A DNA stretch of 64,000 nt. Origin: Psammoneis japonica. Taxonomy: Eukaryota. The translations under genes were made by a program, and so were the position numbers. The DNA lies in NCBI GenBank assembly GCA_008632985.1, contig QPGO01000278.1:1-64000 (forward strand), given 5' to 3'. Every line of letters starts with the position of its first letter. Within the stretch, counting starts at the first letter, position 1. The notes below the pieces were generated by a model. The model ran no database searches, had not been told where the DNA came from, and saw nothing but the letters and a program-made list of their open reading frames with translations. Shown here in pieces: positions 1 through 55,379 of this stretch.

Positions 1-2
1 AT

Positions 3-2880
3 ATGATTATTGGACGTGACATTCTGGAGACACAAGGCATTGATATTGTCTTCTCTAAACAGATGATAGAGTGGCCATTAGTCAATGGAGAAGTACCAAT
101 GAGGCACGTAGATGCTACGGTAGAAACCTCCTTCTATCTTCAAGATCCAGAAGCCTTATCTTCGGAAACCGACCGGATTTCGCGTATTTTAGACGCAAAG
201 TACGCGCCGGCCTGCCTCAAAGACATAACGCGAGAGGCAATAGGTCTTTCTATAGTTCAACAAAACGACCTTTTGGCACTATTGAAACGCCATGAGTCCT
301 TATTTGATGGGACATTAGGAGAATGGAAGGGAGAACCCTACCATATCCAACTCAAGGAGGGTGTAGAACCATACCACGCTCGTCCGTATAAAGTACCTCG
401 TGCGTACGAAGCTACGCTACGTAAAGAAGTAGAACGCCTAGTGCGTATCGGTGTTCTCAAACGCGTTAACCGATCCCAATGGGCAGCTCCATCATTTATC
501 ATACCGAAGAAAGATTTAACGGTACGCTTTATTTGATTTCAGAGAGCTGAATAAACGGATCAAGCGATTGCCTTATCCGATTCCTAACATCCAAGATATG
601 CTACTTAAGCTCAAGGCTTTATGTGGGCTACATCGCTGGATTTAAACATGGGCTATTATCATATCCGATTGGATACTGATAGTAAGAAGCTCTGCACGCT
701 CATCTTCCCGTGGGGCAAGTATGAGATGCAGGTGTTGCCCATGGGATTATGCAATTCGCCAGACATTTTCCAAGAACGCATGTCAGGCTTATTTGAAGAT
801 CTGTCGTTCATTCGAACGTACTTAGATGACCTTCTCGTCGTGACGAAAGGCACCTATGAAGATCACCTCAACAAACTTGAAGAAGTTTTGTTGAGGGTCC
901 AGAAAGCAGGACTAAAAGTTAACGCAACTAAATCTCACTTCTGTCAAACCCAATTAGAATGCTTGGGTTATCTGGTCAACAGAGACAGAATGTGACCAAT
1001 GCCTAATAAAGTCGACGCCATTAAGCGAATCGCGACCCCAACCAATGAACGCGACCTGCGTTCATTCATTGGTGTGGTGAACTGCTGCCGCGACACGTGG
1101 ATTAGATGTTCTGAAGTCTTGGCTCCACTGGCACGACTCACAAGCAAGACTGTTAAGTGGGAGTGGACGTCCGTTGAAGACGAGGCATTCGAAACCGTTA
1201 AACGGGTGACATCGGATGATGTTTTGTTGTCACATCCTGATTTTAGTGAACCCTTTGAGATGCATGCCGATGCCTCTAAATGTCAATTGGGGAGCAGTTA
1301 CATCCCAAGATGATAAACCTGTCGCCTTTTACAGCAGAAAGCTTGGCAGTGCGCAATTAAATTGTGCAACAACGGAGAGAGAATTGCTCGCCATTGTGGA
1401 GACGTTGAAAGAATTTCGAACGATTCTCCTTGGTCATCGTACAATTATACATGCTGATCATAAAAATCTTACGTACAAAGCATTCAATGCCGAGCGCGTT
1501 ATGCGCTGGCGGTTGACATGCGAAGAATGCGGTCCTGAATTACGCCATGTTAAGGGCACCCATAACCCAGTCGCTGACGCTCTTAGTCGCCTTCGACCAG
1601 CACCCAGCTTGCCTTCCGAGGCCAATCCAGATGTAAAAGACACTCCATCGAGTCGTCCTTTGCATGAAGCTTTTAATGCAGACGCACAAGATGAGACATC
1701 TCTGCCTGTTAGCTTCAAGCGCATTCAAAAAGCACAACAAAAGGACAAGCACCTGCTCTCACGAGCTGAGGACTCATCCGACTGCTCCATTCGCGCGTGT
1801 CGTGGGGGAGGGTCATCACGACAGTTAATCTGTCATAAGGACAAAATCGCAGTACCACAGTCATTGCAGGTTCCGCTAACTGAATGGCACCACGAGACAC
1901 TGTGTCATCCAGGTGAGACACGCACGGAAATGTCCATTGCCCAGCACTTCTGTTGGCCTGGCATGAGGTCTACGGTGCATTCTACGTGCGTTAAGTGCGA
2001 TCGATGCCAGAAGACAAAACGCCGAATGCAGCGTCATGGGAAGCTGCCAGAAAAGGTCGCAGAGATAATTCCATGGGAGACTCCATGCATGGATGTGATG
2101 GGGCCACATAAAATTCAAAGACGCGGAAAGGACACCTTGCAATTATGGGCAGTCACAATGATTGACCCAGCAACCGGGTGGTTCGAGATTAAAGAAGTGT
2201 CTATGAAATGCGCAGACGTCGCAGCAAACGTCGTGGAACAAACGTGGCTGTGCAGACATCCGTGGCCAACCCAGGTGGTTTATGACCGTGGGACAGAATT
2301 TATGGCAGAATTTAGCCAGATGATTAAAAATGACTATGGGATTTTGAAGAAACCCACAAGCAAACGGAATCCACAGGCGAATGCCATGGTGGAACGTGTG
2401 CGCCAGACACTTGGTAACATGGCACGTTCCTTTTCAGTGCAGGACATGGAACTGGACGAAGATGACCCATGGAGTGGCATCCTCTCCGCAGTGGCCTTCG
2501 CCATTAGAGCCACGGCACATGCAACCACGCGTGCAAGTCCCATGCAATTGGTCTTCGGACGCGATGCGGTTTTGTCTGTTGCCCATCGTGCTAAGTGGAA
2601 GCACATAGAAACCAGAAAGCAGAAGCTTGTCCACTTAAACAACAAGCGTGAAAATCAGAAATGCAAGGAGCATCAACACACCGTAGGGCAATTGGTGCTT
2701 GTCAAACAGGAACAATCCTCTAAGTGCGGTTCTGACAGCTGTGCAGGACCCGCCAGAGTTGTCCGTGCACATGACAACGGCACGTTGCATGTCCAGAACG
2801 GAGCGCTGACAGATGCGTGCAATCTACGGCAGATTGCACCCCATCACCAGCAAGACATCCTGTCACTTAACGGCCCTGAT
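3..2880 (+). pseudogene. pol: gypsy pol (protease tail, RT, RNase H, integrase) with frameshifts or stops near 535, 620, 993 and 1300
   Basis: ORFs 3-536, 621-995, 999-1313 and 1216-3018 carry consecutive gypsy pol motifs. Confidence 0.9.
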
Positions 2881-2890
2881 CATGGGGGAG

Positions 2891-3289
2891 TGTGCAGTGT
2901 GCCTCGCTGCTGGACAACACGGCGAGACCGTGCACAAGCCTCTTGTGCGTGGCAACGTAGTGTTGTTAACACGCACCTGGGAAGCACGACCACAGGAGGG
3001 CGTGGCTCCAGGTCTTAGACAATTCCAGAAGGATGCCAAGAGAGCATCCGTGTGAAGCACACTAGCCCGTCGTCTGGCCCACGATGGCAGCGTGATTCCA
3101 CACGATGACATCACTCGTGCATGGCGCGTGATGGCTTGATTCGCACGATCCACAATGCGAATGCACAATCGATTTAATGCGATCCAAATGCGAACGAACA
3201 GGGATTTGGCAAGATTCCCCATTCGCACGATCCCATTTTCTCCACTCTAAACTAGCTCATAATTTTCACAACGACAAAGTCATAACACA
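2891..3289 (+). repeat. Probable 3' LTR of G1
   Basis: Starts with TG directly after the PPT and ends ...CATAACACA where the opposite-strand ORF resumes. The partner LTR is not in the window, so the right end is approximate. Confidence 0.6.
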
Positions 3290-5891
3290 TCTTCTTTTTC
3301 AGCGCCTGGCACACACATGGGGCAGTGGATCTCTCTGCCTGCGGGGGTGGCGGCACTGCCAACGATGCCGGTGGCAGCTGGAAAGGCTCTCGGCCCAGAG
3401 TCCCCGAGCTCGGGCCATTGCCGAAGACCTGTTTGGTCTTCCAATGCTCCGTTGCCCACGTGAGGAGGTTTGCCTGGTCGCTCTCCGCGTGGTTGTTATG
3501 ATGGTCCGCTGCACACCCACAGTTTGAGTTGCACTGCCCTTTCAAGTGGTGCGGGAGGCACAGTGGGTTTCCTTGTGCGTCGACCAGCAGTGCGACCCCA
3601 TTCTGAGTGCAACGCTGCTTTACCTCCCGTGACCCAACATTGGGACAATCGCGGACGGCATTGAAACGTTCGTCGCATTGGGGGTTGCGCACTGGCGTGT
3701 TGTCGCCCGGTGCGCCTGGGCGTGGATTTTGTGCGGCACCACCCACGGGCTGGGCCAACGAGGGAGTCGTAGTGGTTGGGGCGGGCGCGCTCCCGGAAAC
3801 CACTGCAATTGTAGGGGGCAGCGTGCAACACCACGAATCGTTTCCCTTCAAAGCATCGCCCACCACTGGGCGCGCGTGGAATGGGACCGTGGTGTTGCAG
3901 GCTGTCTCCTGCAGCCGAAACCAAGATGTGAGCTCCACTTGCACACAACGCTGGATGTCCGCCACTGGCGTTGGATTCCGGGAGCACTCCACAGCCAGGT
4001 CCTCGGCGCACGTGTCCAGGTCCTGCCGGGAATCCGTGAAGTGCTGGACCACAGGGTGTCCCGCACCCAGCAGTGTTGCGAGTGCAACACGTGTGCTCTC
4101 CAAACAACATTGGAGCGATTCGATGGTGGTGGTCACGCGTGCGTTGTCAGGCATTTCCAGCACCATCGTGTCGGCAAGACTGGGCCGACTGTCACCTCCG
4201 TGGATCTGGCGGTACATGGCAGCACGGTGAGTGATTTGCTGCGCTTGCTCTGGGGTCATGAGACCAAATTGGTGCAGGTTGACTCCTTGGGCAGGGTCAT
4301 CTCTATTGTCTCCAGCAAAGTTGAGGCTCATCAATTTTGACACCAAACTTGCAGTGACCGGGATGCGGAAACGCACTCCCAAGGCGCGGCGCGTCTCATC
4401 AACTGCATTCTGGACCTCAGCAATGCATCCCGCCTTTGAAGCCCGCGCGAGGCGTGGCCACATGGGTGGCAGCTGATCTTCAGTGTACACTTGGCAAAGT
4501 CTCATAAGTTTGTACACGCCCAGATCGCCGAACGCTTGCACCGGCGTCTTTCCTTGCTCGGCGGCTCGCTGGTGTGCCTGTGCGTCAATGCGCGTCTGAC
4601 GCTGCTCGGTTGTGAGTCCATCGATCGCCCTCACTGCTGGTGCAATGTGATGGGGCGGAAGCACAAGCTCGTCACGCCCCGGCAGGTCGAAATTGACCTT
4701 CTGGTCGAAGTGCCGCATGAGCGCCGCGTTCGGGGGCTGGGGCATGGTTGGCCACTCTCCCGCAACGGCCGACACGTGGGGGTCCCCCGCCGTGGCGGTG
4801 CACGCAACCTTGAGATAGTCCAACAAAGGACGCATCGCGTCGACCTCGTTCCTGGCCGCAGCCGCTCCAAGAATTCATGTGAAGGCTTGCTTTGGGGACA
4901 GACCCCCTGGGAGAAGCATGTTCACGTAGGTGAACGGAACGTGCATCGTGAATCGCGCACGTGCTTCCACCGTGTTTGCTGCATTCAGGTCCGCGGGGCC
5001 TGCCAACCCTTCAGGGTGCGCCGTGATCTCCGTAGCCATCCCCGCGTCGTCTGGCACAAATGTGCCAGCGGCGGCGAGGCCCATCTCCTCTGGTGGACAC
5101 GGGACCACTGTGAACTGGTTGGCGACCAGGTCCCCGGCTAGGGCATGGGTGTTTCCGTCCCACGGCTGTGCAGGCCCGATGATGGCAGTCGGGCAGGTTG
5201 AAACGTGGTGGTGCACCTGAATCGACCCTTCGTCTGGCACGCCCTGCGCGCGGCAGAGGCGCACTGATGCCATCGGCATGTTGTGCTTGGACGCCGCTGA
5301 CACCCTCTGTGCTGGGGCTTGTGGGTTGTAACGGGAGGCCCCCTGTGCACGGGCCGCAAAGTCAATCATGGGCTCCGTGTGGACCCCTTGGTGGGGGTCC
5401 TTGGTGTTTGTCGTGAAAAAATCTTGGCAGGTCCTGGGGTTCCCTTGTTGGGGAACCTGGGCTGCGCCGGCTGGTGGTGCCGGTTGGGCAGCTGCTTGTG
5501 GCTGCACGCCTGGTTGCCCCGCTTGTGGCACGGGGTGCAACGGCGGTGGCGGCACTCCCGGCGGTGGTTGCGGTGGTTGCCCGGGCGGTTGCCCGTTGCC
5601 AGGATTCACGGTGTTTGGTGGTTGGTCATTCATGCTGCGTGCCGTGTCGAATTCTTTCTGTGATAGAACAAAGACGGTGGAGGTGTCCTGCGTCGCGGTC
5701 TTACAGCGATTAAACTGTGCTGACGACAGCGGCTTGTCTTTGTCGATCTTGAAAGAATGAGACAAGCCAGTGACCGAAGAAAAACAACAACCAACCCTTA
5801 CAGCACATTCAACGTGCGTACGTGGTTCAACAGGCAATGGGTCTTCTCCCCGATTCTGGCACTGGATGAGGACAGCACGACGTTTTGACAT
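3290..5891 (-). pseudogene. Gag-like ORF, probably of a tyrosine-recombinase (DIRS/Ngaro-like) retroelement, 3'-truncated at G1
   Basis: ORFs 4875-5891 and 3252-4835 are in one frame, separated by a single TGA. Pro/Gln-rich N-terminus (MNDQPPNTVNPG..) and a C-terminal Cys/His finger LCLPHHLKGQCNSNCGCAADH. The family call is from resemblance only; no RT or YR is present. Confidence 0.5.
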
Positions 5892-7069
5892 CCCCCGTAA
5901 GACGACCTGTGATGGTCAGATGAGAATTGTGCGTGATCGGCTCACCAAAGGGACCCTAAAGATGCCACCATTTGCACTCAACAATCGATTTTGACCAAAT
6001 GCACACTTTTTGCCGCACCCGAGTGTTGCCTGGTGAATCCGTGGATGCGGTGTTAACAACGAACGGGATGTCACAGCCCGGCGACTTCTGATTTTAAGAT
6101 GGTCCAAGATTTCAAGTCAAGTCTGGCTCAAGTCAAGTCTTTTTCAAGCCAAGTTACAAGTCAAAACTCCGAGTCAAGACCGCGCTCTAGATTGGTTCCT
6201 GTCTTTTGTTTCTGCTGCACCGTCCTCCGTCATGGTTCTCACGTGACAGCAACAAACCGACAGCTTTAAATACATTCTAGGCACTGTGCTCAATCAAGAC
6301 GATGACAGCCCTCTTCGTTCTGCCCTGTCCATCAACGGGATTGAATCGTGTGAGGAATTGTTCACGTTCTTACCCACCCAAATTGATGCCCTCACTTACA
6401 GAGATGGCGCCAATGCAGTTCCTTTGCCACGGACCTACAGAAACCTCCTAGCAGCATTGATCAGCTTCTACTTTGTCAAAGTTTGCAACGGTGATGATGT
6501 GACCAATGAACCCCAGTTGCTTGCACCCGAGGAATTTTGCGACTGCCGCCTTGGTCCGGACTGCTTGACCTCTCTAGCCACTGGCGCAGCACCCTCCGCA
6601 CCTGTGCCGAGTCCCTTGCCATCCAAACCAGGTGAACCCAGCGCCATTTTGACACCAGCCTTGCACTGTGCCACCACTCAGGTGTCCCCAAGAAGTGGTG
6701 TCAGTCGCGCCCCACATGTCTTGACCAACCCGCCTGCAAGCAAACTCGGCCCAGTGCAGGATTGCAGCCCTTGCGCAGGCCCGCACTTCGAAACCAGTTG
6801 GGACACTACACCCATGGCTTCCAAAGCTGCAGCCTTTGCACCCCGCAAACCACGTGCTGCCAACCTCCACGTGTTGACCACTGTCACCCTTCACGACCTT
6901 CATTTGGGAAGTGATGGAGATGACAACTTGCTTCTTGCATCTCCTGATGGGGAGCCTCCTTTTCCCGTCATTGAAGCTGTTCACAACAGTTCAACCGGTT
7001 CATCAGATGGGGAGTTCAGGACATCCAAGCAGCTTCATTGTCTTTAGATCCTCCAAGCATCGCACCACG

Positions 7070-7640
7070 AGACGAGGCCTTCTGATTGGATGCCCCAAGT
7101 CTCGCACCTTGAGACCAGGCCTCCTGACTGGATGCCTCAAGTCTCGTGCCTCGAGACTGGGCCTCCTGGTTGGATGCCCCAAGTCTCGTGCCTTGAGACG
7201 AGGCCTCCGGATTGGATCCCTCAAGTCTCGTACCTTGAGACCAGGTCTCCTGATTGGATGTCCCAAGTCTCGTACCTCGAGACTGGGCCTCCTGATCGGA
7301 TGCCTCAAGTCTCGTACATCGAGACTGGGCCTCCAGATTGGATCCTCCATGTCTCGCACCTCAAGACTCGGCCTCCGGATTGGATCCCTCAAGCCTTGCG
7401 CCACAAGACTCGGCCTCCTAATTGGATCCCCCAAGTCTCGCACCTCAAGACTTGGCCTCCTGATTGGATCCCCGAAGACTCGTGTCACAAGACTGGCAAG
7501 TCCTTTTGGATTCCAGAAGTCTTGCAGCACGGGACTGGTTGCCCCAATCAGACATCTGCAGTCTTGCACCACAAGATGTCTTGCTCCAATCCGATCCCCA
7601 AAGGCTTGCACCTTGAGACTCGTTCCTCCAATTGGATCAG
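7070..7640 (+). repeat. 42-bp tandem repeat, about 14 units, each with an internal hairpin
   Basis: Unit is approximately TGGATGCCCCAAGTCTCGTACCTCGAGACTGGGCCTCCTGAT; TGGAT recurs at 7087, 7129, 7171, 7213... The 14-aa repeat MPQVS.LET.PPDW appears in the ORF track. Confidence 0.95.
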
Positions 7641-8068
7641 TCTCTCAGGAGATGCAGCTGAGCTTGCAATCGGATTGGTGGAACACAAGACCACCGCTTG
7701 TGCCTTTGAACTCATGCTTGCTCTGTTCCCCAAGTCATGCAAACGCCATGCCACCCTGCTCAAGCACTGCTCTGTTTTTCTAGCAGCAGCCCAGTGTGGC
7801 AACCGTTCCAAGAACCAACAGATGGCTGTCATTCTTTGCGACCTTCGCTCAGGGAGTGAAGGTGATGTTAACTTGTTTGCATTGTCCTGCGATGTTGCCC
7901 CACTGTTCAACATTGTCAACCAGACCAAGCTTTGCTCCTTCCATTGCAAGTGCGGATGTGGAATCCCACAAGATCCCAAGTGTGCCTTGAGCTTTGAAAA
8001 GCACAACAGCATCTGCAATTGGGGAGACGCAGCTCATCTCAAGATGACCCACTTGGAGAATGCAACTG

Positions 8069-8251
8069 TGCGCACGATGCAGTTTGCTTTCGAGCCACTT
8101 GGCTCACAAGAATGACAACAGCAGCCCGATTGCACCAACTTGCATGTCTTTCAGCTCCTGCAACGGTCTCTGAGCGGAGACTCATCTGCCATTTAGACAG
8201 CAGTGAGGAGTTGTTGTTTGAATTCTTGCCATTTGCCTTCAATTTCTGTCA
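8069..8251 (+). repeat. Partial family A LTR (3' two thirds)
   Basis: Reverse complement of 48582-48765; ends TTCAATTTCTGTCA. Confidence 0.9.
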
Positions 8252-9289
8252 AGGCGCCTCAGATTCGGCCGCCCTTCACGCAGACAACTGTGCCAAGGGT
8301 TGCACTGCTACACTGTCACTTGGTCGGGTGAAGACCTCCAGCACAGCTGCCATGAAGCATGCAAGCCTAAAGGGTGTTTTTCTTCTGAGGATTGGGTGCC
8401 AAGCAAAGTGAGAGACAAGGAAGACACAGGCGTCGTGGAAGACTGTCTGAAGCCGGCTACAAGGACAGAAACGATGCTGCTGCTCCTGACACTTTTGGCA
8501 GTTCAGAAGTGCTGCCTCACAGTGATTCAGAATCTGCAACTGGTGATCATGGCAGAACCATGGGCTCCGGTGAGAAATTGGTCTGCATTGATCTGTTGGA
8601 TGATTTTGCAAATGTGAGCTCCAGCAGTCCAGCAGCAACCATCGGAATCAGGCAATCCTTGAAAACACAACCAAAACGTGGACATCATGTTGGGTGTTCA
8701 GGGGAGCTTCTTTAGCAGCAATGGGTGTTGACACAAGATTCTAAGACACCAATTTGATGGTTTGTGGAGAGCATGATCGGATGATCGGGATTGGGAAATC
8801 CGCGAAAACGCAACGCCACTGGCATGTTGGGTGGCCCCATTTCGTTGTGTGGGAGTTGCTCGAGCAGCAATTGCCATTTTAGACTTCAAAGCAATGCTTT
8901 GTTGAGCATTTCTGTTAGAAGGCACCTGGAATCGAGAGTTGCACTAGAGTCAAAACCTGGAATCGAGAGTTGTGGCGAGTGCACTGTGCACAGCGACAAA
9001 CAGCATCACATCCAGTTGCAGTTGTCCCAGCTCAGACAATGTTTCAAACCCTTGCACTTGTCGTTCACTGATGGGCAGGCATTGTGAGTGTCCCACAGGA
9101 GACAGTTTGGCACTCTTTTTTTGTTTCCAGCGCCTCGACTGAATGCATGTTTTTTTGATGCCGCCAACACACAAAAGACACCGTTTGTGGTCATTTTCAT
9201 GTTCAAAACTTCTCTGTCAACAAAGGACAGCTGAGGGCACTCCACATCTCCTGCTTGCGCCTCTTCCTCTGTTTCTTTCCACCGGCTTG

Positions 9290-9840
9290 ACCTTCCATTT
9301 GGGTGGGCTGTGGGCTGGTGGATGGTGGAGGCGTTTGTTGTGTCGCTGGGTCGGCAACAGCGACATGGAGACAAACAATTGCTGTCATAAAAATGCCTTC
9401 TGCTGTTGATCCTTTTGATCAAACCTCACCAATGGGAGCAGAACAAATGATTCATTGGCAAGCATTGGCAAGCATTGGCAAGCATTGGCAAGCATTGACA
9501 GCAGGACAGTTGCAATGACCAAACGAATGTTTGTGAGATGCATGACGTTGGCGCAACACGACAAAGAACATTGACATTTTGCGACTTGCCCGTGGCACTG
9601 AAACCCTGGTTTTCTTCCATGCTGGCACCACACATCATTTGCTGGGATTGCACGCTTCTTTTCGTCAGCTTTTTCTTCCATTTGGGTGGGCGTAGAGGCG
9701 TTTGGGGCATCGCTGCTGATTGGCAATGGCGACATTGAGGTGCAATTGTTGTTGTCACAAAACACTTTCTGCTGGCGATCCTTTTCGCCAAATGTCAGCA
9801 ACAGGAGCAGAACAAATGATTTGTTGAAAAGGATTGCCAG
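9290..9840. repeat. Diverged local duplication (9290-9465 vs 9675-9840) with a (AGCATTGGCA)n microarray
   Basis: Shared blocks cttccatttgggtggg, gaggcgtttg, gatccttt and ggagcagaacaaatgatt. The 10-mer is repeated about 4 times at 9452-9497. Confidence 0.75.
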
Positions 9841-12254
9841 CAGAACAGCTGCAACAAGGTTGGCACACAACAGACTGAAATGGATTTCATTGCGGCGATT
9901 GACACGAGAAGGGCTGTGCTCAACTCAAAAAAGTTGCTCAAGCGGATGGACATACAGACTTGCGGGGGGTCACCGTCAAGCAAGTGGGCGTGCCGGAGTT
10001 TTCGGCCCGTTTGCTTTCTACGTGGCCTGGTGCAACCCAAATCTGTGTAGATTCAGTGCATTTTGCCCTGTGGAACAGTTTTTGGGAGTGTTCTCTGGCT
10101 CGCGGCTCAAAATGACACGCAAAAAACACGGACAGTGGTGTTTCACCGATTTGAAAAATGCAACCGTCTCTGAGGTTGGAACCTGTGTGCTCTCAAAGGA
10201 ATTTGGTGCGTCACATCATAAGATGTGAGATGAGCTTGAGAATGTCCAGGTTCATGTGGGCAGATCATGGTGAAATTTTGAACTGAAGATTGGTGTTGAC
10301 ACCGCCGATTTTGTTGCATCAACACGCAACTCATGCATCACCATTCATGCTGTGCATTTCGTTGAGCACTCACACATTCACATTCTGTCAACTTGCACAC
10401 ATCATGTTGTCTTTTCTCATTGTTGTTTTGTTCTGCAGGGTCCATCTTGCCATGAGCCATCCCCGAGAGAGAAATGCTTGCTTTGAATGTCACTTCCACC
10501 TTGCAACGGCCATGGCAGTCTGACGACAAGTCCAAGTCACAAATGCAGCATCAGGATGACTTCATGACAAATGTGGAAGCTTGGGTCTGTGGTGTCTGAA
10601 GATGTTCAAGCTCTTGACAGCTCAGATTTGTCACCAAGCAATTTTGCTGTGCATTTGACGTGCATCCAGAAGGTGATGATGCAAAGTTTCACTCAACAGA
10701 GAAATGCACCGCGGCAATTGTGAAGGGGTGGATTGTTTCTTCATTTTACAAGGCAGTTTACAAGCCAGAAACATGTGACTGGTTTGCCTGCATTGTCAGC
10801 CAGCACAACAAATTTGGAGGTGAAAGGCAATGCACAGTGCACAAACAACGAACCAAGCCTCAAAAGTGCAGCAGGCTAGCCAGAGAGTTTGCACCAACAG
10901 GAAGAACTGGCTTTGCCATTTGTCATGGGACAGCAGAGATTTTGTTTCATTGGGGTGACAAGTCTCCATTGCTGTTCTAGAGTGACCAGCATTGGTTTGG
11001 CCATTGCAGCCTTCATGCATGCCCACCTCTTGACAATCTGTTTTGTTCTGAGATTGTGCAATGAAAAACCTTTGTTTGCAATGTTCCATCACAAGAGAGA
11101 GCCAACAGAAAGACACTGATGATGACAGTGAAGGACACCATTTTGATGCACTGTCATCTGGTGGTGTGGTTGATGGAGTGCAGTGCTTTCTGTTTTGTGC
11201 TGCTGCTGTGCAGGAATGCACGTGCTTGGCTCTTGGGCAGCTCCTGTGTAAAAAGTGAACCAGGCCATCTCCGGACCGCCCTCTTAAGAATCCATGCATC
11301 CGGGTTTCTTTTGGCACTTTTCATCGCCACGTCCTGGTTGCTTGAGGTTGCATCTTGGATGGTTTCACACATTTGCCACATGGAAAGCTGCACAAATTTG
11401 CAGTGCATGACGTCACAACTTGATCTTGCCTCCAACGCAATGCTGAACGAACGAACAAAAACACCACTTCTCCCACCATGGGACTTGGTCGTCCATGCGT
11501 TGACAGCCGCGTGGTCGATCAAGTTGAGAGTGTTGTCACACAACAACAAGACAGTGCTTGATGCGATCAATGTGTTGGATTCATTGTTGCTGTTGACCAT
11601 CATGCCACATTCAGACATGCCAAGAGGCAGTGTGTTTGCTGACTTTTTGCAATGCTCTCACGACGGCGGCACACATGAGTGCACACGTCTGCAATCGTTC
11701 AGTTCATTTCCACTGTGGATGGCACAATTGCATGTGATGAATGCACACAGAGTGTTTGTGCCATGATCTTTGTCTCGTGACAGGAACAGAAATTGGGATT
11801 TGCTTGAGACAGTGATGCCATTGACCATCACACTGTTTTTGACATTTAACACAGTCTTCGTCATCACTCATGTGCCACAACTCATCAATTTGGAAGTGTT
11901 TTGCTTCATGCTTTTTCAATCAACTTTCCTGTGAATGCTTTTGGCATCCTCTCTGCATGTTGAAAGTTCTCGCACTCGTGAAGCCTTGGTCTCTTGTGCC
12001 CCACAGTGCAGCTGCAGCTTGGCTGTGTGACGCAGCATGTGACATGTGCTTTGTCACGGGACAGTGTGTGAAACCAAACATTGTGGCAGATTAGAGAGAC
12101 AAACCATCAGAAAATGGATTTGGAATGAGCTCGTTGAGCTGGCTCCAAATCCGTGCTCAAATGGTTTGTCTCGGCTGTCCTTGCTTGTGTCTGTGCATCG
12201 TGCAGACGGAAACTTAATTTGCCATAAATGGACATGCTAACTGGCCATCCACCC

Positions 12255-13172
12255 TCCTGCTGGATTCAACTTAGAATCAATTGAAGGGTCCTGTGGACGC
12301 TCTTCATGAACCTCTTGGGTCTGGTGGACCCTTTCTTGCTGCTGAGAGCCTTTGGTTTCTTCAGATTGTCTCGAAAATGACAACTCTGATTCTGAAGTGC
12401 ATTTCCTCAGAAGACATGAGCCAAGAGATGCTCAAACCACTTTCAACGGTTCCTTCTTGCTCTTTGGACTCAAGGCTTGTCAATTGGGCCTCAAAAAACT
12501 CTCCAACAGTCTCTCCTTTCATGGTGGATGTGTTTCTTGGACCTGATTGACTCATGACCTGAAACTCCATCCAACCATGACTTGGCGCAGATGTTTCGAC
12601 AATGCTGTGCACTTGCAGAGTCCTTGATCCTGAGTCACTTGAGCTGGATCACATCAGAACAAATCCTCTTGTCTTGCAGATGAAAAACAGGGCTCCATCT
12701 TGAGGTGCTGCTCGGATTGAGCTGCCTCCACTCAGAAATCGATTCCAGCAGAACCAACGCATTTCATGCCTGCTCATGGAAGAATTTACAAAGGCACATT
12801 GGTTGAAATTTTCATTTTCCATGTTTTTACCTTCTGTGGTGTGCACACACAATTGCACTGTGCTTGAAGAACGAGTGTGAACGAAAGTGGAGTCAAGCAT
12901 GAAAAGTGAAAATTATGAGACCAAATTTTGCTCTGTGATTTTTGGTTTCTCCGAACAAGTTCTCAATGGCCCAAAGCTTCTGCACTGCTTCCACAGACAA
13001 AAGGCCTGTTGGAGAATGTGCTCGTGACAACAGATTGTCCGGGTGCTGTTGCTGTTGACACGCAAGATGTCAACATCATCAATCGATTGTGTTTGCAATT
13101 TTTGACATCCGATCAACTCTGTGTGATCGTTCTGTCCTTTGTGCGCATCCATGACTGTGGTGTGATTGACGC
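12255..13172. repeat. Dispersed repeat R1 copy 1 (unclassified, about 900 bp)
   Basis: Collinear high similarity with 18170-19083, e.g. gaacgaaagtgga.tcaagcatgaaaagtgaaaatt. Confidence 0.9.
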
Positions 13173-14117
13173 ACAAACAACACACAATTGTGAACATGCA
13201 CATGACAGTCGCACACTGCATTCGCCTCCCCACTGGGCAAAAATTAATTTGGTGTTTCGCGTGACAGTCTGGCAGGGCTTGGATGGCCGTCGCAAAAAAG
13301 GCACATGCAGAAAGTGCGCCAGTTTCTACATGCACAAGCAAACACCACACAAAGACTTTGAGGAGCCACACGCAGAATGTGCGCTAAATGTCACATGCAC
13401 AAATGTCTTGACAGAAAATGGTGACACCAACGGAATGACGGCACGCACGCATGCACGCACAAAAGATGAATGACCACTGTCTTGCTGTCGCACCTGCATG
13501 CTGTGTCCTGCGAGAGGGCACACGCAGCCAAATTTCAGTGCCAGGCACTGCATGCAGTTAAAGTCTGCCATGCAGAACCTGGCACTAATTCTGCGCATGT
13601 CCAAAATTCGTGGCAGGCAGGCAGTGCTTCAGACAGAAATGTCGCACGAAACACCACATTGATTTTTAGCCGGCTGGTTGCACATTGGAGTCATTCATCA
13701 AGTGGAGTGATTCAACGGACATTGACGTTGTCAACAATGTCTCCACGTCAACTGCATTGTGCCATTGGCAATGACTGTTGTTGTTTTGCACAGGCCAGCA
13801 CGGGGCCGTTTCAATTTCCAAATGTCTTTCAAGAGCACCATGGTTTGTCTCGCGCTTTGTGTGCACACACAATGCTCTCTGTGTGTGCACACATGAGCAC
13901 ACTGCAGTGTTGCATCAAGCATTCTCTCTGACAGCATTTTGTTCATGTGGACACAAGGACCAATTGTCCTGCTGTTCTTTCATGGTGTCGATTGCACACA
14001 GCATGTTGCCCAGCACTCGATGTGCGCTCTTGGTTGGCGTTCACTTGCTTGCTTGTGGATTTCGTGCAGTTTGGCGGGCTCACTTCATGTGCCACATTGC
14101 TCTGCTGCACTGCCATG

Positions 14118-14138
14118 CAACCCTGACCCTAACCCCAA
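14118..14138 (+). repeat. Short degenerate (CCCTAA)n telomere-type tract
   Basis: CAA CCCTGA CCCTAA CCCCAA reads as CCCTAA units with TA changed to TG or CA. Confidence 0.55.
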
Positions 14139-14628
14139 GGTGGCACGGGTGCAAAAGTGGGCCAGACTCTACGTGTGCAGAGCTTGGCATGTTTTCTACA
14201 CAAATCGCCAAAGTCGGCTCGCCAACTTGAGTCCTCTCCCGGATGATGGAAACTTGGACATTTCACACAACAAAGTGTTTTGACTGCTTGGTTGCACTCT
14301 CCTCGACTTGTTTGGGGAGAGAAGTTACAAGTTTTCACAGGTTTCTGAGGATGCACAACGAATCTAATCAGAAAGGTGCCGAAATTGCAACGTTCGAGTT
14401 TTGCAGAGCCATGCAAAACAAGAAACCCATGGAAACTTGTGACTTCTCTTCATGAACAAGTTGAGGGGAGTGCAGTTGAGCAGTCCAAACACTTTGTCAT
14501 GTGAAATGTCCAAGTTTCCATCATCCTGGAGAGGGTTCAAGTTGGCGAGCCGACTTTGGCAATTTGTGTGGAAAACATGCCAAGCTCTGCGTGCGCAGGA
14601 TCTGGCCCACTTTTGCACCCATGCCACC
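14139..14628. mobile_element. MITE / foldback element with ~210-bp terminal inverted repeats, PIF/Harbinger (Tourist)-like
   Basis: 14139-14347 is the reverse complement of 14421-14628 (GGTGGCAYGGGTGCAAAAGTGGGCCAGA...). Flanks CAA and TGA fit a mutated TAA target duplication. Confidence 0.85.
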
Positions 14629-14799
14629 TGAGCAGCAATTGACGATGGTCAAGGATGTGACCATTTGGTCTTGACAATCAATTCTGTGATGGTTGTGAAC
14701 TCCATTGTGATTTTTTGCACTTCAACCATCCATCAGTTGGATTTTAATCATCATTTGGACGTTTCTTTTTGACATGCTGGCATCATTTTGTCATTCCGA

Positions 14800-17700
14800 A
14801 GGCACTGCTTTCGTGCACTGAGTGGACAAATGTCCATTTTTCTTTTCTTCTTCTGAATGTTTGGCACATCTCGTGTGTCCACATGATGCACGTTTTAATG
14901 TCTTGCCTCGCACATTGTACGGTGCAACCGTGCGGTGTTGTGAGATTGTCTTTTGCCAGTGTGAAGTGGATGCCACAATTGTGCGCCAATCTGTCACAGA
15001 GTTTTTTTTCAACCGTCCTTGTGTGAGACGATTTTGTCCTTGTGACATGAGCATTTTTCGATCTCGCTCCCTCCACGAAAAGTGCTTGCATGACATGTTG
15101 CGTCCGACAATTTGGAGGGAATGTCTTCACCCCATTTTAACGGCGGGACATTGTCGCAGGATTCAATTTTCCATGCTGTGCAGCAGCAAGTCGGCTGATC
15201 GTGTCCACTGTGCCGCATCACCAGAGGTGCACAAATCGTCTTGTCGTCCACACGTGTGCTTCCTTGCATGCAATCAATGTGCAAACGACAAATCATTTTG
15301 TCGTTGGTGTGCGCGCTGAGTGTGTGAGTGCGCATGTGCGAATGACAACAGACGATTCATGCACCTCTGCTGTGTCGCGACGATGTTTGCCTTGCCCTTG
15401 ATGTGTTTTAATTCGGGGCTGAAGTTTTCTGTTGCAAGTTGTCAATGCATGACTTTGCCCGTTGTGCCCTGTGATCCGTGTGTGTGTCAATTTGTTGGCC
15501 AAACAGTGCTGCATGTTTCGGAATTTTATGAGTGTTTCCACCATGGACAGAAGTTCTTTTTTCCGTTGTGACATGTGACATTGAAATTTGTGTGTGACAA
15601 CAACACAGTTTTTGATTTGGTGTGCTCCATGTTTTCAGAGACTTTTTGTTCCACACTTGTGCTTTTGCCGTTTGACCTTTGTTGAGATGAATTTGGCTGG
15701 CATTGTGCAGGAGATCATTGAGATCACATGTCTCGACAGCAGTGACGTGTGACAATGAGATGTTGCAGTGTTCTTTTGCGTTTTTCTCAGTGTTGCGATT
15801 GCTTGAATCACCTCCATTTTCTCAGCAATTGATTGCATGTCATTGCACATGGAAGTCTTGACAGTTTGTTTCAAGTTAAAAAGTGAAGGACTTTTTGTTG
15901 TTGACCTTCCAAGCGACTGTTCTAGTCGCACGAATGCCGTTTCAAGTGTCACTTGCACAGGCGACATTTTGAAGTCACTTTTTGTCAGGCACAAACGATC
16001 ACACACAGTTGTTCTGACAACTTCAAACCTGTCATGAGTTCACTCATGTGTTGCACAAAAATGTCTGGGGCTCTGTGGCTTCTCATTGGAAGTTCACAGT
16101 GCTTGTTTTCTCCCCACAGCATGATTTTCGTGTTGGCACTGCATGTGCTTTTTTAATTTGATGTGACAGTGTCCCACGTTCAAATCAAGCAAGGTCATGC
16201 ATGTGAAACCTTCCAGTTTCTGAAGTGCATCCTGAACATTTGGCAGAGGATGCAGCGTGCATGCTGGCCTCTCACTCAGTTCACGAAAGTTGGGCAGAAA
16301 CCAAGCTTTGACCATTTTTCCACTTTTTAAAGGTCGGAGCTGTCCATTCAGAATGGTTTGTTTTTCTTTAGGACTTTTAGCTTGCAGAGCCTTTCAACCC
16401 ACTCACAAGTCGCCTCCAAGGCTTGTGGAAACAGGAAACCTTTCGCGTGATGCAGTTTCAAGCCAGACTTCACTGCGAGGTTTTCCAGTCCACTCACCTG
16501 GAGAACCATCAAAAAGAGATTCAAATCTTTTCAAAGGGAAGATCAATGGCTTCTGCTCCTCTGGAGTCAGGCAAGTTGCTGCAGCTGTCACATCATTGAG
16601 GTTGGAAGCATGACAATGTGAGTCGAGGACCATTGGCTCCGTTGTTGACTCTGTTCACGGCATCATGTTTTTCAATGTGATTGGCACTCAGCTGGATGAC
16701 ATCGGCTTCAAAGAGTGGATCAACATTCTTCATAGATGTGGTTGCTTCTTCCTCTTTGATTTCTTCATTTGCACAGTCCAATGTGATTTCAAGACTGGAC
16801 ATTGAGTCGTGTCTCATGATCATGTCACATGGACTTGAAGAAGATTGTTGTTGTCAACACATCATGTTGTTGGCATCATTGCATGCTTGTCAAATTCAGG
16901 CGAAGAGAACTGCATTGAACAGCGACCATCAGTCGTGAAGAGTCACCCTTGGTTTCCCAAGTTTTGGCAGCGGATTTCTTCATTCTCACTTCAGCGTGAA
17001 TTTGCGCAAAATTGTGGATGACGATGTTCTTTGATGAAAAGAACGGCACTGAAGCTTGTTTTTTGCATTCCTCAGAGAAGTGCTTGCATGAACAGCGAGG
17101 ATGGGACCAGCACAACACACTGTGATGCTTTTTCTGGATTGCCAGACGTCCTGCAATGTGCTGTGCTCCTTGAGTGGTGCAATTTTTTGATCGGAGTCGA
17201 TTGGATCAATTTTTCCAAATTGACAGTTTCATTCATTGAGCGTTTTAGAGTCGTAATTTTCACTCTTGTTGTTTTGTTCCTTTGCCAAGGAACTCACTTC
17301 AATTGTTTTTGTGAACCACCTGGTCACTGTGGCGTTCAATTCCTCTTTCACAGAGGTGTTTTTCTGCCATCATCACATCGCGTGCAATTGCTGTTAGAGT
17401 GTCACATTTTTGGGTCTGATGCGTTCCAGCCCTGGGTGGGACTCCGTGTGACATTGGGCCCGCAGAATTCTGCGTGCGAGCTCCGCAGTGCGAGAATTTA
17501 ATCAATGGATGTGTTTGTCTTCAACATCAAACAAACGGCCAAGTTTGTGGTGCAATTGTGCCTCTTGCCACTCGACGTTTTTGCAAATTTGCCTGCCCTG
17601 CGCGATTCTCAAGACATCACAGAATCGCGCTGTAACAAAAAATGTCAAAAGTTGTTGGATGGATCGCTCAATGAGTGCACCGTGAAATGACACAAAATGT
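14800..17700 (-). mobile_element. Heavily decayed Ty3/gypsy element G2 (gag-pol remnants)
   Basis: Minus-strand fragments MIMRHDSMSSLEITLD (PR), FESLFDGSPGEWTGKP, NFRELS..HPLPNVQDALQKLEGF..LDLNVGHCHIKL (RT) and KELLSMVETLIKFRN (RNase H) lie in gypsy order and parallel G1. Ends are approximate. Confidence 0.8.
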
Positions 17701-18169
17701 CAAAAAAAATCACGCAGAAATCTGTGTGCGTGACATGCGACAAGATTCAAAAAACTGTCGATGTCACAGTTCAGCAGTGTGAGGCCCCACCTGGACCTGG
17801 AACGCACTGTCTCTCTCAGAGCCACCCTTGCACTCTTTTTGCTGCTCCATTTTCAGAATGGGCTTCAATCCATGATGGAGGTGTTCTTTTTTTCAAAGAT
17901 TGGACCTCTTGTTCACTTTTGATTGTTCAGGTGCCATGCAGGAGACCATTTTTGGAACCAAATTTGGAACCATTTTGGTTTTGGAATCAACTCCACTGTC
18001 AGAGCCTGATTTGACATGTTTTTTTGTCATGGACGTCTTCAACGACCTTTGGATGACTCAAAACTTAATCAGCTCATCAAGGATGAGTTCCAACAGTTGA
18101 TTGTTTTGGACAGTAGACTGATGCCGCCATCCTTGCGGTGCAAGTGACAGCTGACAGCTCACGCCTTGG

Positions 18170-19083
18170 TTTCCCGCTGGACTCAACTTGGAATCGATTG
18201 AAGGGTCGCACAGACACTCTTCATTGACCTCTTGGGTCCAACAGGCACTCTCTTGCTGCTGAGAGCCTTTGGTTTCTTCAGATCATCTCGAAAATGACAG
18301 CTCTGATTCTGAAGTGTAATTTCTTGGAAGACATGAGTTGAGAGACTCTTGAAGTTCTTTTCAACGGTTTCTTCTTGGTCTTCAGACTCGAGGCTCGTTG
18401 ACTTGGTCTCTAAAAACTCTCCAATGGTCTCTCCTTGAACAGCAGATGCATTTCTCGGACCTGATCGACTTGAGACTTGAAATTCCATCCAACCATGACT
18501 TGGGGCAGATGTTTCAACAATGCTGTGCTCTTGTAGAGTCCTTGGTCCTGAGGTGCTTGAAATGGATTGCACTGGAACGAATCCTCTTGTCTTGCAGACG
18601 AAAAATGGGGTTCCATCTTGAGGCACTGCTCGGATTGAACTGCTTCCGCTCGGAAATCGATTCCAGCAGAACCAGCGCATTTCGCACCTGCTCATGGAAG
18701 AATTTGCAAAGGCACACTGGCCAAAATTTTCATGTTCCGTGTTTTTACCTTCTGTGGCACAATGCACTGTGCTTGAAGAACGAGTGTGAACGAAAGTGGA
18801 ATCAAGCATGAAAAGTGAAAATTGTGAGATTAAATTTTGCTCTGTGATTTTTGGTTTCTCTGAACAAGTTCTCAATGGCCCAAAGCTTCTACACTGTTTC
18901 TACAGACAAAAGGCCTTTCGGAGAATGTGTTCCTGACAACAGATTGTCCGGATGTGATTGCCATTGACACACAAGATGTCAACATCGTCAATGGATTGTG
19001 TTTGCAATTTTCGACATCCGATCAACTCTGTGTGATTGTTCTGTCCTTTGTGCACACCCACGACTGTGGTGCGATTGACACAT
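18170..19083. repeat. Dispersed repeat R1 copy 2, cut at its right end by Copia C
   Basis: Collinear with 12255-13172. Confidence 0.9.
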
Positions 19084-19267
19084 TGAACAAATGCTGCCAT
19101 GAAAGCTGAGAATTGGGTGCAAGACAAGACAGAGTGTTGAACAGCATCAACAGGTTCTGGAATTGTGAGATGTTGCGCTGCTGGGACCACCAAATGAGCG
19201 ACAGTGGACCAATTGCCAACAGTGCACAAACTGCCTGCATTCGTGACAGCATGTCAGCATTTGTTCA
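19084..19267 (-). repeat. 3' LTR of C
   Basis: Ungapped match to 25492-25675; 18-bp terminal inverted repeat TGAACAAATGCTG[C/A]CATG. Confidence 0.9.
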
Positions 19268-19489
19268 GTCCCCTCGAACTGACACTGGCTCCACTCGGGC
19301 CACAGATTCACAGACAAATGCAAGCTGATGCTGCCCTGTTCCAGGGTGGCATTTTAATTTTGATTTTGGGGATGGGAAAAGCCGCACCTGCACGGCAAAC
19401 CCACTTTGGTTTGTCCCCTTTTGGGACTCACCACGGGACATGACTTGTGATTTCCCAGAGCTTCGGTCCAGGCAACAACTTGGTTGGTG

Positions 19490-23440: not shown

Positions 23441-23524
23441 GAATGTCCAGCAGATGACAAAGAGACACATGTGTCCTGGTTTAGCAACAGTCGGTTCTAT
23501 GCCTTTCAGTGCTGGTGCAACTGT

Positions 23525-24946: not shown

Positions 24947-25491
24947 GGTGTGTCAGCAGTTGTTCGCGTTTCGATGCGTGAGCATCCACTTGTGTGAGTG
25001 GAGGAAAGTGAGAAAAATGTGTGGTTCTCGCGCAGATTTGGCGGTTTCCACTTGGCAAACCCGCGAGCAGGCGGTGTTGCTCCTGAGTGATGACATCCAA
25101 CAGACATGTGTCCACATGCACAGTGTCGTAACAATTCGACAACGTGTTTTTGTTAATCAAATGTGCACAGTCAAAAACAGACCTCAACACACAAATCATT
25201 GTGTCATCTGTGTCACGGATGTTTGTGTGCCCTAGCCAACATGTTCCATCCACTTGATCAAACATTCCATCCACTGACGTCATGTCTGACGGATCACAGC
25301 TCTGGTCTCCAAGAGCACATTGTTCACATCCATGAATGTTGACACACACAAAGGACTCAGCGATTGCGTGAGCAACCATGGGACCAACATGGCGCTTGCT
25401 GCAAAAATCGATCGATCGCAACGATGCCGTTGCACCATTCGCGATGCCCGTTCCAGGCGATGAACATCACAGCGCGTTGGCTCTGACAAAG

Positions 25492-25675
25492 TGAATGAAC
25501 ACTGCCATGGTGGCTAAGAATTGGGTGCAAGACAAGACAGAGTGTTGAACAGCATCAACAGGTTCTAGAATTGTGAGATGTTGCACTGCCGGGGCCACCA
25601 AATGAGCGACAGTGGACCAATCACCAACAGCACATAAACTGCCTGTGTTCGTGACAGCATGTCAGCATTCATTTG
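25492..25675 (-). repeat. 5' LTR of C
   Basis: Direct repeat of 19084-19267. Confidence 0.9.
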
Positions 25676-48857: not shown

Positions 48858-48889
48858 CTCCCCAGTTTGCTTGAGGAGTCACAGAAACA

Positions 48890-55374: not shown

Positions 55375-55379
55375 GCGAG

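What the first reader, a model, noticed from the sequence alone, without database searches (positions are those of the whole stretch)
1..1600. Edge of the mutated domain lies inside a single gypsy pol gene
The first ~900 bp have normal TpA (4-5 per 60-bp line in lines I counted) and 12 Tyr in 301 aa, including intact GYYHI and YLDD. From ~950 the same gene shows LECLGY, NCCRD, KCQLG and NCATTE, and the 600-aa RH-IN ORF has only 4 Tyr. Targeting therefore follows chromosomal position or a homology boundary rather than element identity, and this gives an internal unmutated control.
Basis: partly seen in the sequence, partly recalled or inferred. Interest (0 to 1): 0.8.

Follow-up and report, generated by a model that had tools for sequence, protein, structure and literature searches.

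The report
Hypermutation edge inside one retrotransposon gene
A broken gypsy retrotransposon gene is untouched in its first 700 bases and then increasingly riddled with one special kind of mutation (TA changed to TG or CA) that has almost erased TA from the next 60 kb, so it marks where a recently described genome-editing-like process stops.

Summary
TA makes up 57 of 129 TA+TG+CA sites at 1-692, 72 of 540 at 693-3324 and 363 of 12,839 in the remaining 60 kb. At columns where 57 related pol proteins have Tyr, the window keeps 9 of 12 before position 900 but 4 of 24 after it; 17 of the 24 are Cys or His. In 37 related elements the two parts do not differ.

The fall starts near 700-720, not 900-950. 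Its width is unresolved, from 4 bp to about 2.6 kb. TA keeps falling towards the 3' LTR.

The mutation is TpA to TpG/CpA on both strands, at DNA level and independent in different copies. The only precedent found is a 2026 preprint on Bigelowiella natans.

My reading is that the reach of this process ends inside this copy, set by position rather than by element identity (about 0.5). A recombinant or gene-converted copy (0.27) and an assembly join or collapsed contig end (0.13) are not excluded. The window starts inside the gene and no genome was available, so what lies to the left is unknown. The host may not be B. natans, because the named relatives of a copia element in the window are from diatoms.

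The parts
3..2850 (+). Remnant of a Ty3/gypsy pol: end of the protease region, then RT, RNase H and integrase. It reads in frame 3 up to about 1295 and in frame 1 after that.
   Evidence: The ORFs are. Pfam finds RVT_1 (1.1e-21), RT_RNaseH (2.9e-20), RT_RNaseH_2, Integrase_H2C2 (1.4e-12) and rve (26.9 bits, below its cut-off of 32.6). tblastn of 57 full-length homologues gives 49-59% identity in the rows printed, over 3-1295 and 1291-2850.
1..692 (.). Unmutated stretch, with TpA o/e about 0.85-1.1.
   Evidence: TA is 57 of 129 TA+TG+CA sites. Nine of 12 consensus-Tyr columns up to position 900 are still Tyr. TA-type replacements are 0 of 134 at conserved columns in 3-900.
677..834 (.). Transition zone, inside the RT domain between the GYYHI and YLDD motifs and just beyond.
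   Evidence: The step model puts the break at 693, with a 2-lnL interval of 677-729. Sigmoid centres run from 688 to 834 for widths up to 1.3 kb. The first place where the window has TG and 41% of other-copy depth has TA is 734. The first Tyr-to-Cys column is 960.
693..3324 (.). Partly mutated part of the same element. About two thirds of the expected TpA is lost, and TA keeps falling to the right.
   Evidence: TA is 72 of 540 sites. Retention relative to the left part is 0.34, 0.43, 0.29, 0.17 and 0.23 in 475-bp bins. The logit slope is -0.42 per kb, LRT 5.97. Of 24 consensus-Tyr columns, 8 are Cys and 9 are His.
533..612 (+). Short out-of-frame patch between two small deletions.
   Evidence: Other copies have 2 extra letters behind 533 (7 contigs, about a third of depth) and 1 extra letter behind 612 (all depth). 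The reading frame is seen.
993..995 (+). In-frame TGA stop.
   Evidence: At 993, 96% of other-copy depth reads another letter, and the difference is of CpG type.
1291..1295 (+). Frame change from frame 3 to frame 1.
   Evidence: The tblastn segments of all printed homologues switch frame here.
2891..3324 (+). 3' LTR, starting TG and ending CA, preceded by a purine run at 2884-2890.
   Evidence: Summed contig depth rises from about 18,000 to 54,000-76,000 in the bins covering 2851-3300, then falls to 4,292 and to 264-640. Twelve loose ends lie behind 3324. The exact start is read from the sequence and is inferred.
3325..64000 (.). TE-rich domain that is nearly saturated with the same mutation (copia and gypsy remnants).
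   Evidence: TA 363, TG 6513, CA 5963. TpA o/e is 0.00-0.35 per kb, mostly 0.03-0.18, and TG and CA o/e are 1.2-2.3. Pfam finds RVT_2, gag_pre-integrs and SH3_retrovirus.

Best explanation
The window is a transposon-rich domain of at least 60 kb that has been hit by a DNA-level, TpA-specific A:T-to-G:C hypermutation (TpA to TpG or CpA, both strands). This is the kind measured directly in Bigelowiella natans, where an adenine deaminase acting on DNA has been proposed.

A gypsy copy abuts this domain with its 3' LTR. The intensity of the process falls with distance into the copy. It is near saturation in the flank, about 75-85% TpA loss in the last 1.4 kb (1900-3324), about 60-65% between 950 and 1900, and none left of about 700.

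So the limit of the process is set by place (a chromatin-like domain or its spreading) or by the extent of some targeting tract, not by which element the DNA belongs to.

Shown: the signature, both strands, independence between copies, the contrast within one gene, and the rightward trend. Inferred: that the contrast arose in place at this locus, the enzyme, and the chromatin link.
For: 1. Signature. TpA o/e is 0.00-0.35 with TG and CA at 1.2-2.3 over 3-64 kb. At columns conserved in at least 80% of homologues, 27 of 55 mismatches in 901-2850 are undone by TG/CA back to TA, and 4 by the CpG route.
2. Both strands. Of those 27, 15 are A>G and 12 are T>C on the + strand (my hand count from the list). 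Tyr became Cys 8 times and His 9 times.
3. Independent events in different copies. At 1363-1366 the window has TG,TG where 5 contigs have CA,CA. At 2671-2680 it has CA,CA,CA where 2 contigs have TG,TG,TG. At 524 and 531 it keeps TA where 7 contigs have TG.
4. The contrast is not intrinsic to the gene family. In 37 relatives the two parts are 0.76 and 0.77; in the window they are 0.91 and 0.46.
5. Graded profile. There is a further significant fall inside 730-3324 (LRT 5.97), and widths up to about 2.6 kb fit as well as a step. Retained TA sites in the mutated part are not clustered (runs z=0.97).
6. Similar background decay on both sides. Non-TpA, non-CpG mismatches are 13/134 against 24/306. 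Near-fixed private differences of other kinds are 3 against 3. The left side has 2 frame slips; the right side has 1 frame change and 1 stop.
7. No step in summed depth at the edge: 12,733, 13,957 and 13,166 in the three bins around it.
8. Precedent. Regionally confined, TpA-only, two-strand hypermutation, including a single-copy 186-kb region, is reported in preprint 10.64898/2026.01.13.699255 (Results and Discussion read).
Against: - The window starts inside the gene, so the left neighbourhood is unseen. The unmutated stretch is only about 700 bp.
- A step model fits slightly better than any sigmoid (nll 300.6 against 301.4-302.5). A step is what a junction between two copies would give.
- Private CpG-type differences of the window copy are 0 per 42 CpG in 1-800 against 11 per 100 in 801-2400 (p=0.034). 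This fits a shared domain, but it fits an older or differently housed right-hand parent equally well.
- Only 40 of 547 variant places were shown, and contigs drop rare variants. 'Private' differences and the background comparison therefore rest on small, filtered counts.
- The best holder run has only 47% of the sampled words. The exact locus could not be checked against reads.
Confidence: 0.5

Rival explanations
1. Mosaic copy. The right part belongs to a copy that sat in the hypermutating domain. The left part came from an unmutated copy, by ectopic gene conversion, homologous recombination, or template switching between two packaged RNAs during reverse transcription. On this reading the edge is a junction, not a limit of the mutator.
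For: - The family is very abundant and diverse. 4346 contigs of run X1 were laid on 4.5 kb: 846 at 99% or more alike, 1148 at 95-99%, 1662 at 90-95% and 690 below 90%. Donors therefore exist.
- The step model is the best single fit.
- Private CpG-type changes also start only at 810.
- Homology with relatives runs through the edge without an indel, as a homologous junction would.
Against: - There is no excess of other private differences on the right (3 in 800 bp against 3 in about 2100 bp), nor of non-TpA mismatches to homologues.
- The left part has its own private changes: 3 substitutions that all 14-38 other contigs lack, and two small deletions. It is therefore not a fresh copy of a donor visible in that run. 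Yet it has lost no TpA, so it has escaped the process for some time.
- The rightward trend within the mutated part is not predicted by a simple two-parent mosaic.
Confidence: 0.27
2. Assembly artefact. The assembler joined two different copies inside the repeat. Or the first 700 bp are the end of a contig, built as a consensus of reads from many copies. Such a consensus would restore TA at sites that were mutated independently in a minority of copies.
For: - The family is high in copy number, and the finding sits at the very start of the window.
- Two small indels in the left part lie in or next to short homopolymer runs, as consensus errors often do.
- No listed contig spans the whole stretch.
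Against: - The left part carries three substitutions absent from all other contigs that cover them (221, 245, 586). A majority consensus would not have these.
- The remaining 63 kb reads as a coherent nested-TE sequence with a single N.
- The transition can be fitted as a gradient, and it continues within the element.
Confidence: 0.13
3. Editing of a replication intermediate. The gradient along the element arose on RNA or single-stranded cDNA during retrotransposition, as in APOBEC3G gradients on retroviral minus-strand DNA or ADAR editing of double-stranded RNA. It was then fixed on integration.
For: The mutation load rises from 5' to 3' towards the polypurine tract and LTR. This resembles the known retroviral APOBEC3G gradient (recalled, not from a call).
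Against: - Both strands are hit about equally, 15 A>G against 12 T>C on the sense strand. A single-stranded intermediate would give one kind only.
- The non-element flank and unrelated copia remnants are mutated even more.
- Different copies carry opposite products at the same TpA sites.
Confidence: 0.04
4. Intrinsic composition or selection. The RT part keeps TA because of codon usage or constraint, and nothing positional is involved.
For: None beyond the fact that RT is the most conserved domain.
Against: - In 37 related elements the two parts have equal TpA o/e, and the lowest right/left ratio is 0.72 against 0.50 here.
- The left part is itself frameshifted.
- Other copies are mutated in the left part.
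Confidence: 0.02

Closest known systems
TpA-specific hypermutable regions of Bigelowiella natans (Mettrop et al., bioRxiv 10.64898/2026.01.13.699255; abstract, Results and Discussion read, plus a term look-up; supplements not available)
   Same: - The mutation is TpA to TpG/CpA only, on both strands.
- It is confined to regions.
- It leaves TpA depletion with CpA+TpG enrichment.
- Reverse-transcriptase and DDE Pfams are enriched among TpA-poor ORFs.
   Different: - There the measured targets are an integrated giant virus (186 kb, Rho TpA 0.45) and a virophage (25 kb), which are far from saturation. Here the target is an LTR-retrotransposon domain of at least 60 kb with TpA o/e of 0.00-0.35 (mostly 0.03-0.18).
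- The preprint's text has no occurrence of gypsy, LTR, boundary or border.
- The host here is not identified. The named relatives of a copia ORF in the window are diatom proteins, and no Bigelowiella name appeared among the 206 listed hits.
Repeat-induced point mutation (RIP) of Neurospora and other ascomycetes
   Same: It is a DNA-level, dinucleotide-specific, two-strand hypermutation that ruins transposons. Its extent is set by a tract (the duplicated segment) with some leakage into flanks (recalled knowledge).
   Different: - The direction is opposite. RIP turns CpA/TpG into TpA and makes DNA AT-rich. Here TpA is destroyed and G+C rises from 0.44 to 0.50-0.60.
- Repeat dependence is not shown here. 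In B. natans a single-copy region is hit.
APOBEC3G hypermutation gradients on retroviral cDNA, and ADAR hyper-editing of double-stranded RNA
   Same: Both are deaminase-type transitions in a preferred neighbour context (ADAR prefers U before the edited A). Both give a 5'-to-3' gradient along a retroelement (recalled knowledge; the ADAR preference is also stated in the preprint's Discussion).
   Different: Those act on one strand of a replication or transcription intermediate. Here both strands are hit equally, and non-element flanks are hit too.
Ty3/gypsy LTR retrotransposons
   Same: The domain order is RT, RNase H, integrase. A YLDD box, an H2C2 zinc-binding domain and a TG...CA LTR are present.
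   Different: This is a dead copy. It has three frame disruptions and a stop, and 27 of 306 highly conserved columns are replaced by TA-type changes. The closest proteins found are only 58-60% identical.

Membership tests
Ty3/gypsy LTR retrotransposon | Reverse transcriptase with a YxDD box | tested here: met
   RVT_1 scores 78 bits against a cut-off of 29.6. YLDD at 819-830 sits at columns that are 100% Y, D, D in 57 homologues.
Ty3/gypsy LTR retrotransposon | Domain order RT, RNase H, integrase | tested here: met
   RVT_1 lies at 609-992. RT_RNaseH and RT_RNaseH_2, then Integrase_H2C2 and rve, follow in 996-3015. The rve score of 26.9 bits is below its cut-off of 32.6.
Ty3/gypsy LTR retrotransposon | Two LTRs with a target-site duplication | not testable with these tools
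   Only the 3' LTR (2891-3324) is in the window, inferred from the depth step and the loose ends. The 5' end lies left of position 1, and no genome is held.
TpA-specific A:T>G:C hypermutation (B. natans type) | Changes fall on TpA and give TpG or CpA | tested here: met
   In 3325-64000 there are 363 TA against 6513 TG and 5963 CA. At conserved columns in 901-2850 there are 27 TA-type replacements against 4 CpG-type. In 3-900 there are 0 TA-type.
TpA-specific A:T>G:C hypermutation (B. natans type) | Both strands are hit | tested here: met
   15 A>G against 12 T>C on the + strand (hand count). 8 Tyr>Cys against 9 Tyr>His. The TG-CA skew per kb is no greater than in control loci.
TpA-specific A:T>G:C hypermutation (B. 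natans type) | Confined to delimited regions next to normal DNA | tested here: inconclusive
   One side of a limit is seen, at 1-692 against the rest. What lies left of the window is unknown.
TpA-specific A:T>G:C hypermutation (B. natans type) | A measured de novo rate about 1000-fold above background, in some lines only | not testable with these tools
   This needs mutation-accumulation lines or resequencing. Here there are only differences between copies: opposite products at the same TpA sites.
TpA-specific A:T>G:C hypermutation (B. natans type) | Same host lineage (chlorarachniophyte) | tested here: inconclusive
   No host gene, tRNA or Rfam RNA is in the window. The named relatives of the copia ORF are diatoms at 35-50% identity, 44-47% for the best-scoring ones. 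TE relatives are weak evidence of the host.
RIP (ascomycete repeat-induced point mutation) | C>T at CpA, giving TpA excess and AT-rich DNA | tested here: not met
   TpA is depleted to 0.00-0.35 o/e, CpA and TpG are in excess, and G+C is higher in the mutated DNA.
Editing of retroelement RNA or cDNA (ADAR or APOBEC type) | Changes of one kind on the sense strand only, confined to the element | tested here: not met
   Both kinds are present in about equal numbers. The flank and unrelated elements are also mutated.

The most novel reading that the evidence does not exclude
The host is not Bigelowiella but another marine protist; the copia relatives point to diatoms. In that case TpA-directed hypermutation of DNA would be a wider eukaryotic genome defence. 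It would work in chromatin-like domains, run to near saturation over tens of kb of retrotransposons, and creep 2-3 kb into a newly inserted element. This gypsy copy would then record the decay profile of the mutator at a domain edge, base by base.
Probability: 0.3. Interest if true: 0.8.

Novelty: new member of a known kind. Interest (0 to 1): 0.6.

Why it matters
TpA-only hypermutation of DNA has, as far as six full-text searches show, been described once, in a 2026 preprint. That preprint gives no information on how its targets are delimited.

A single gene that is clean on one side and mutated on the other is a natural control. Age, sequence family and codon usage are the same on both sides, so the difference must come from place, from a targeting tract or from a junction.

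If it arose in place, it gives two things. It gives the length scale on which the mutator is confined, at most about 2.6 kb. It also shows that family identity (for example small RNAs matching the whole element) cannot be the sole guide.

There is a practical point as well. The process removes TAA and TAG. The mutated DNA therefore carries 61 stop-free frames of 200 aa or more in 64 kb, and these will be mistaken for genes.

Tried and rejected
- Whole genome: none is held, so the window could not be extended leftwards.
- Earlier notes of this scan: nothing by place, words or sequence.
- Other copies of the family:
  - None inside the window by blastn or tblastn; there is only a distant gypsy remnant at about 15.4-16.6 kb.
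  - None above 60% identity among 1401 protein hits to the RH-IN ORF, nor above 70% among 8 hits to 996-1310.
  - The best of 516 confirmed metagenome loci is 70% identical at protein level.
  - A degenerate 28-mer from 647-674 found 0 matches in viral contigs and 0 in genome contigs.
- Per-copy mutation maps could therefore not be made. One search showed only 40 of 547 variant places.
- Run X3 (a metagenome; 37 contigs laid, 24 of them under 90% alike) and runs X2 and X4 (small shares) add nothing firm about habitat or strain.
- Strand coordination:
  - Ordered along the gene, the 27 TA-type changes split 10:4 (A>G:T>C) in 901-1600 and 5:8 in 1601-2850 (hand count). I ran no test on this split.
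  - TG:CA counts are 46:32 in 950-1424 and 29:48 in 1425-1899, p=0.010. This split was picked after looking at the bins.
  - Window-wide TG-CA skew is no larger than in control loci.
- Clustering of retained TA in the mutated part: none (runs z=0.97).
- Copy-number step at the edge as a sign of a homology boundary: none seen in summed depth. That depth is a poor measure of copy number.
- ESM Atlas look-up of the neighbouring 540-aa ORF: recognition was below the useful level and no family emerged.
- Rfam and tRNA scans of the window: nothing.
- Base-calling artefact at modified TpA: rejected. Contigs of public runs show the same TG/CA-for-TA differences between copies, and the changes appear as Tyr to Cys/His at 17 of 24 columns.
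Full report
**What is there.** Positions 3-2850 (+) are the remnant of a Ty3/gypsy pol.
- Pfam finds RVT_1 at 609-992, RNase H models, Integrase_H2C2 and a sub-threshold rve in 996-3015.
- 57 full-length homologues from metagenomes align without interruption over 3-1295 (frame 3) and 1291-2850 (frame 1), at 49-59% identity in the rows printed.
- The gene is dead on both sides of the reported edge. There is a short out-of-frame patch between small deletions at 533 and 612, an in-frame TGA at 993-995, and a frame change at about 1291-1295.
- The element ends with a 3' LTR at about 2891-3324. The summed depth of public contigs rises about four-fold over 2851-3300 and collapses after 3324, where 12 contigs run on into unrelated sequence.

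**The observation.** It is confirmed.
- TpA per 60-nt line is 3-8 in lines 1-12 and 0-6 (mostly 1-3) afterwards.
- TA accounts for 57 of 129 TA+TG+CA sites in 1-692, 72 of 540 in 693-3324 (p=1.7e-13), and 363 of 12,839 in 3325-64000.
- The 301 codons of 3-905 hold 12 Tyr. The 602-aa ORF at 1210-3015 holds 4 Tyr, 24 Cys and 30 His.
- Of 36 columns where at least half of the 57 homologues have Tyr, the 12 up to position 900 read 9 Tyr, 1 His and 2 other. The 24 beyond read 4 Tyr, 8 Cys, 9 His and 3 other (Fisher p=3e-4).
- At columns conserved in at least 80% of homologues, replacements that are undone by turning a TG or CA back into TA number 0 of 134 in 3-900 and 27 of 306 in 901-2850.
- The Cys residues of LECLGY, NCCRD and NCATTE sit on Tyr columns that are 93-100% conserved. 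The Cys of KCQLG does not.
- The contrast is not a property of this kind of gene. In the 37 of 80 related metagenome loci long enough to test, TpA o/e left and right of the equivalent point is 0.76 and 0.77, with a lowest ratio of 0.72. The window has 0.91 and 0.46.

**Where the edge is and how sharp.** A step model places it at 693, with a 2-lnL interval of 677-729.
- The width is not resolved. Sigmoids with 10-90% widths from 4 bp to about 2.6 kb all fit within 2 lnL units.
- Inside the mutated part, TA keeps falling towards the LTR. Retention relative to the left part is 0.34, 0.43, 0.29, 0.17 and 0.23 per 475-bp bin. The logit slope is -0.42 per kb, LRT 5.97.
- Beyond the element TA falls further, to a fraction of 0.028.
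- The retained TA sites are not clustered.

**What the mutation is.** The whole window from about 3.3 kb on has TpA o/e of 0.00-0.35 (mostly 0.03-0.18), with TpG and CpA at 1.2-2.3.
- The changes are on both strands. Among the 27 TA-type replacements, 15 are A>G and 12 are T>C on the sense strand (hand count).
- The family is very abundant in one public run. 4346 contigs were laid on 4.5 kb, and A>G, T>C, G>A and C>T account for 443 of the 501 variant places tallied for that run.
- Different copies have been hit independently. At 1363-1366 the window has TG,TG where five contigs have CA,CA. At 2671-2680 it has three CA where two contigs have three TG. At 524 and 531, in the window's clean part, seven contigs have TG where the window keeps TA. 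At the TA sites 721, 748, 790 and 819, 34-82% of other-copy depth is changed.
- This is therefore a DNA-level process acting on copies after they separated. It is not editing of a single-stranded replication intermediate, and it is not RIP, which creates TpA.

**What is in print.** Six full-text searches gave one precedent: Mettrop et al., bioRxiv 10.64898/2026.01.13.699255. I read its abstract, Results and Discussion and ran a term look-up. Its supplements were not available.
- In mutation-accumulation lines of Bigelowiella natans, 230 of 231 new mutations in a 186-kb integrated giant virus and a 25-kb virophage were A>G or T>C, and all of these fell on TpA.
- The rate was about 1000 times the background, in some lines only.
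- Genome-wide, 124 TpA-poor clusters were found, with reverse-transcriptase and DDE domains enriched. An ADAT2-like deaminase was proposed.
- The text does not mention gypsy, LTRs or boundaries.
- From its numbers I compute about 1e-5 changes per TpA per generation (211 mutations, 3132 generations, 6169 TpA). The roughly 70% loss seen in 693-3324 would then need on the order of 1e5 generations, if this host behaved alike. This is my inference.

**How the contrast arose.**
- *In place (about 0.5).* The mutator's reach ends, or decays, inside this copy. Evidence for this:
  - The profile is graded.
  - Non-TpA, non-CpG mismatches do not jump (13/134 against 24/306).
  - Near-fixed private differences of other kinds are 3 in 800 bp against 3 in about 2100 bp.
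  - Disruptions lie on both sides.
  - The left part has its own private changes yet has lost no TpA.
  - Summed depth shows no step at the edge.
- *A mosaic made by gene conversion, recombination or template switching (about 0.27).* It would explain a step. It would also explain why private CpG-type changes of this copy start only at 810: 0 per 42 CpG in 1-800 against 11 per 100 in 801-2400, p=0.034.
- *An assembly join or a collapsed contig end (about 0.13).* It cannot be excluded, because the runs are available only as contigs and the best holder has 47% of the sampled words. The three private substitutions in the left part argue against a majority consensus.
- *Editing during retrotransposition, or intrinsic composition.* These are close to refuted.

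**Host.** No host gene, tRNA or Rfam RNA is in the window.
- The named relatives of a copia-type ORF at 37602-40112 are from the diatoms Nitzschia inconspicua and Cylindrotheca fusiformis, at 35-50% identity (44-47% for the best-scoring ones).
- No Bigelowiella name occurs among the 206 hits listed.
- This is weak evidence, but it leaves open that the process exists outside chlorarachniophytes.

**Verdict.** The mutational process is a known kind, though only just described. That this is the in-place edge of the domain is the best reading, but it is not proven. Comparing the two LTRs of this copy, and finding long reads across the edge, would settle it.

Noticed in passing
window 3000-64000, all six frames: The mutation removes TAA and TAG, so TGA is almost the only stop left: TAA 161, TAG 108, TGA 1463. 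The window holds 61 stop-free frames of 200 aa or more, many overlapping on both strands, almost without Tyr and rich in Cys and His. Most had no Pfam family. Gene finders would call them as genes.
   Followed up: partly
window 6000-47000 compared with 3000-6000 and 48000-61000: CpG o/e varies from 0.12 to 0.93 between segments that are all nearly free of TpA. CpG decay and TpA decay therefore run at unlinked rates in different elements.
   Followed up: no
window 1363-1366 and 2671-2680, compared with contigs of run X1: Neighbouring TpA sites within a copy were changed on the same strand (TG,TG or CA,CA,CA), and on the opposite strand in other copies. This hints at short strand-coordinated patches. 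However, these places came to light only because such clusters make the aligner clip, so the sample is biased.
   Followed up: partly
window 37602-40112 (+), 20229-21191 (-), 57597-58889 (+): These are copia-type remnants carrying gag_pre-integrs, SH3_retrovirus and RVT_2. The named relatives of the first are diatom proteins at 35-50% identity, and the best unnamed hits are at 51%.
   Followed up: partly
window 15376-16630 (-): A distant second gypsy remnant, 39-55% identical to pieces of the pol at 3-2850 in short segments.
   Followed up: no
window 3255-4874 (-) and 4878-5915 (-): Two adjoining long frames (540 and 346 aa) directly beside the LTR, with no Pfam family and no usable Atlas match. 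Contigs of run X1 cover this stretch at a summed depth of 260-640, all differing from the window at the listed places, so it too is repeated.
   Followed up: partly
window 7002-7631: A tandem array of a 42-bp unit. Eleven overlapping 210-nt copies in register are 60-82% identical to the reference copy.
   Followed up: no
window 54100-54600: The only stretch right of 3.3 kb with a noticeably higher TA share, 11 TA in 300 bp and a fraction of 0.24. It is non-coding-looking sequence with short GACTTGA-type repeats.
   Followed up: no
window 60075: A single N, the only one in the window.
   Followed up: no
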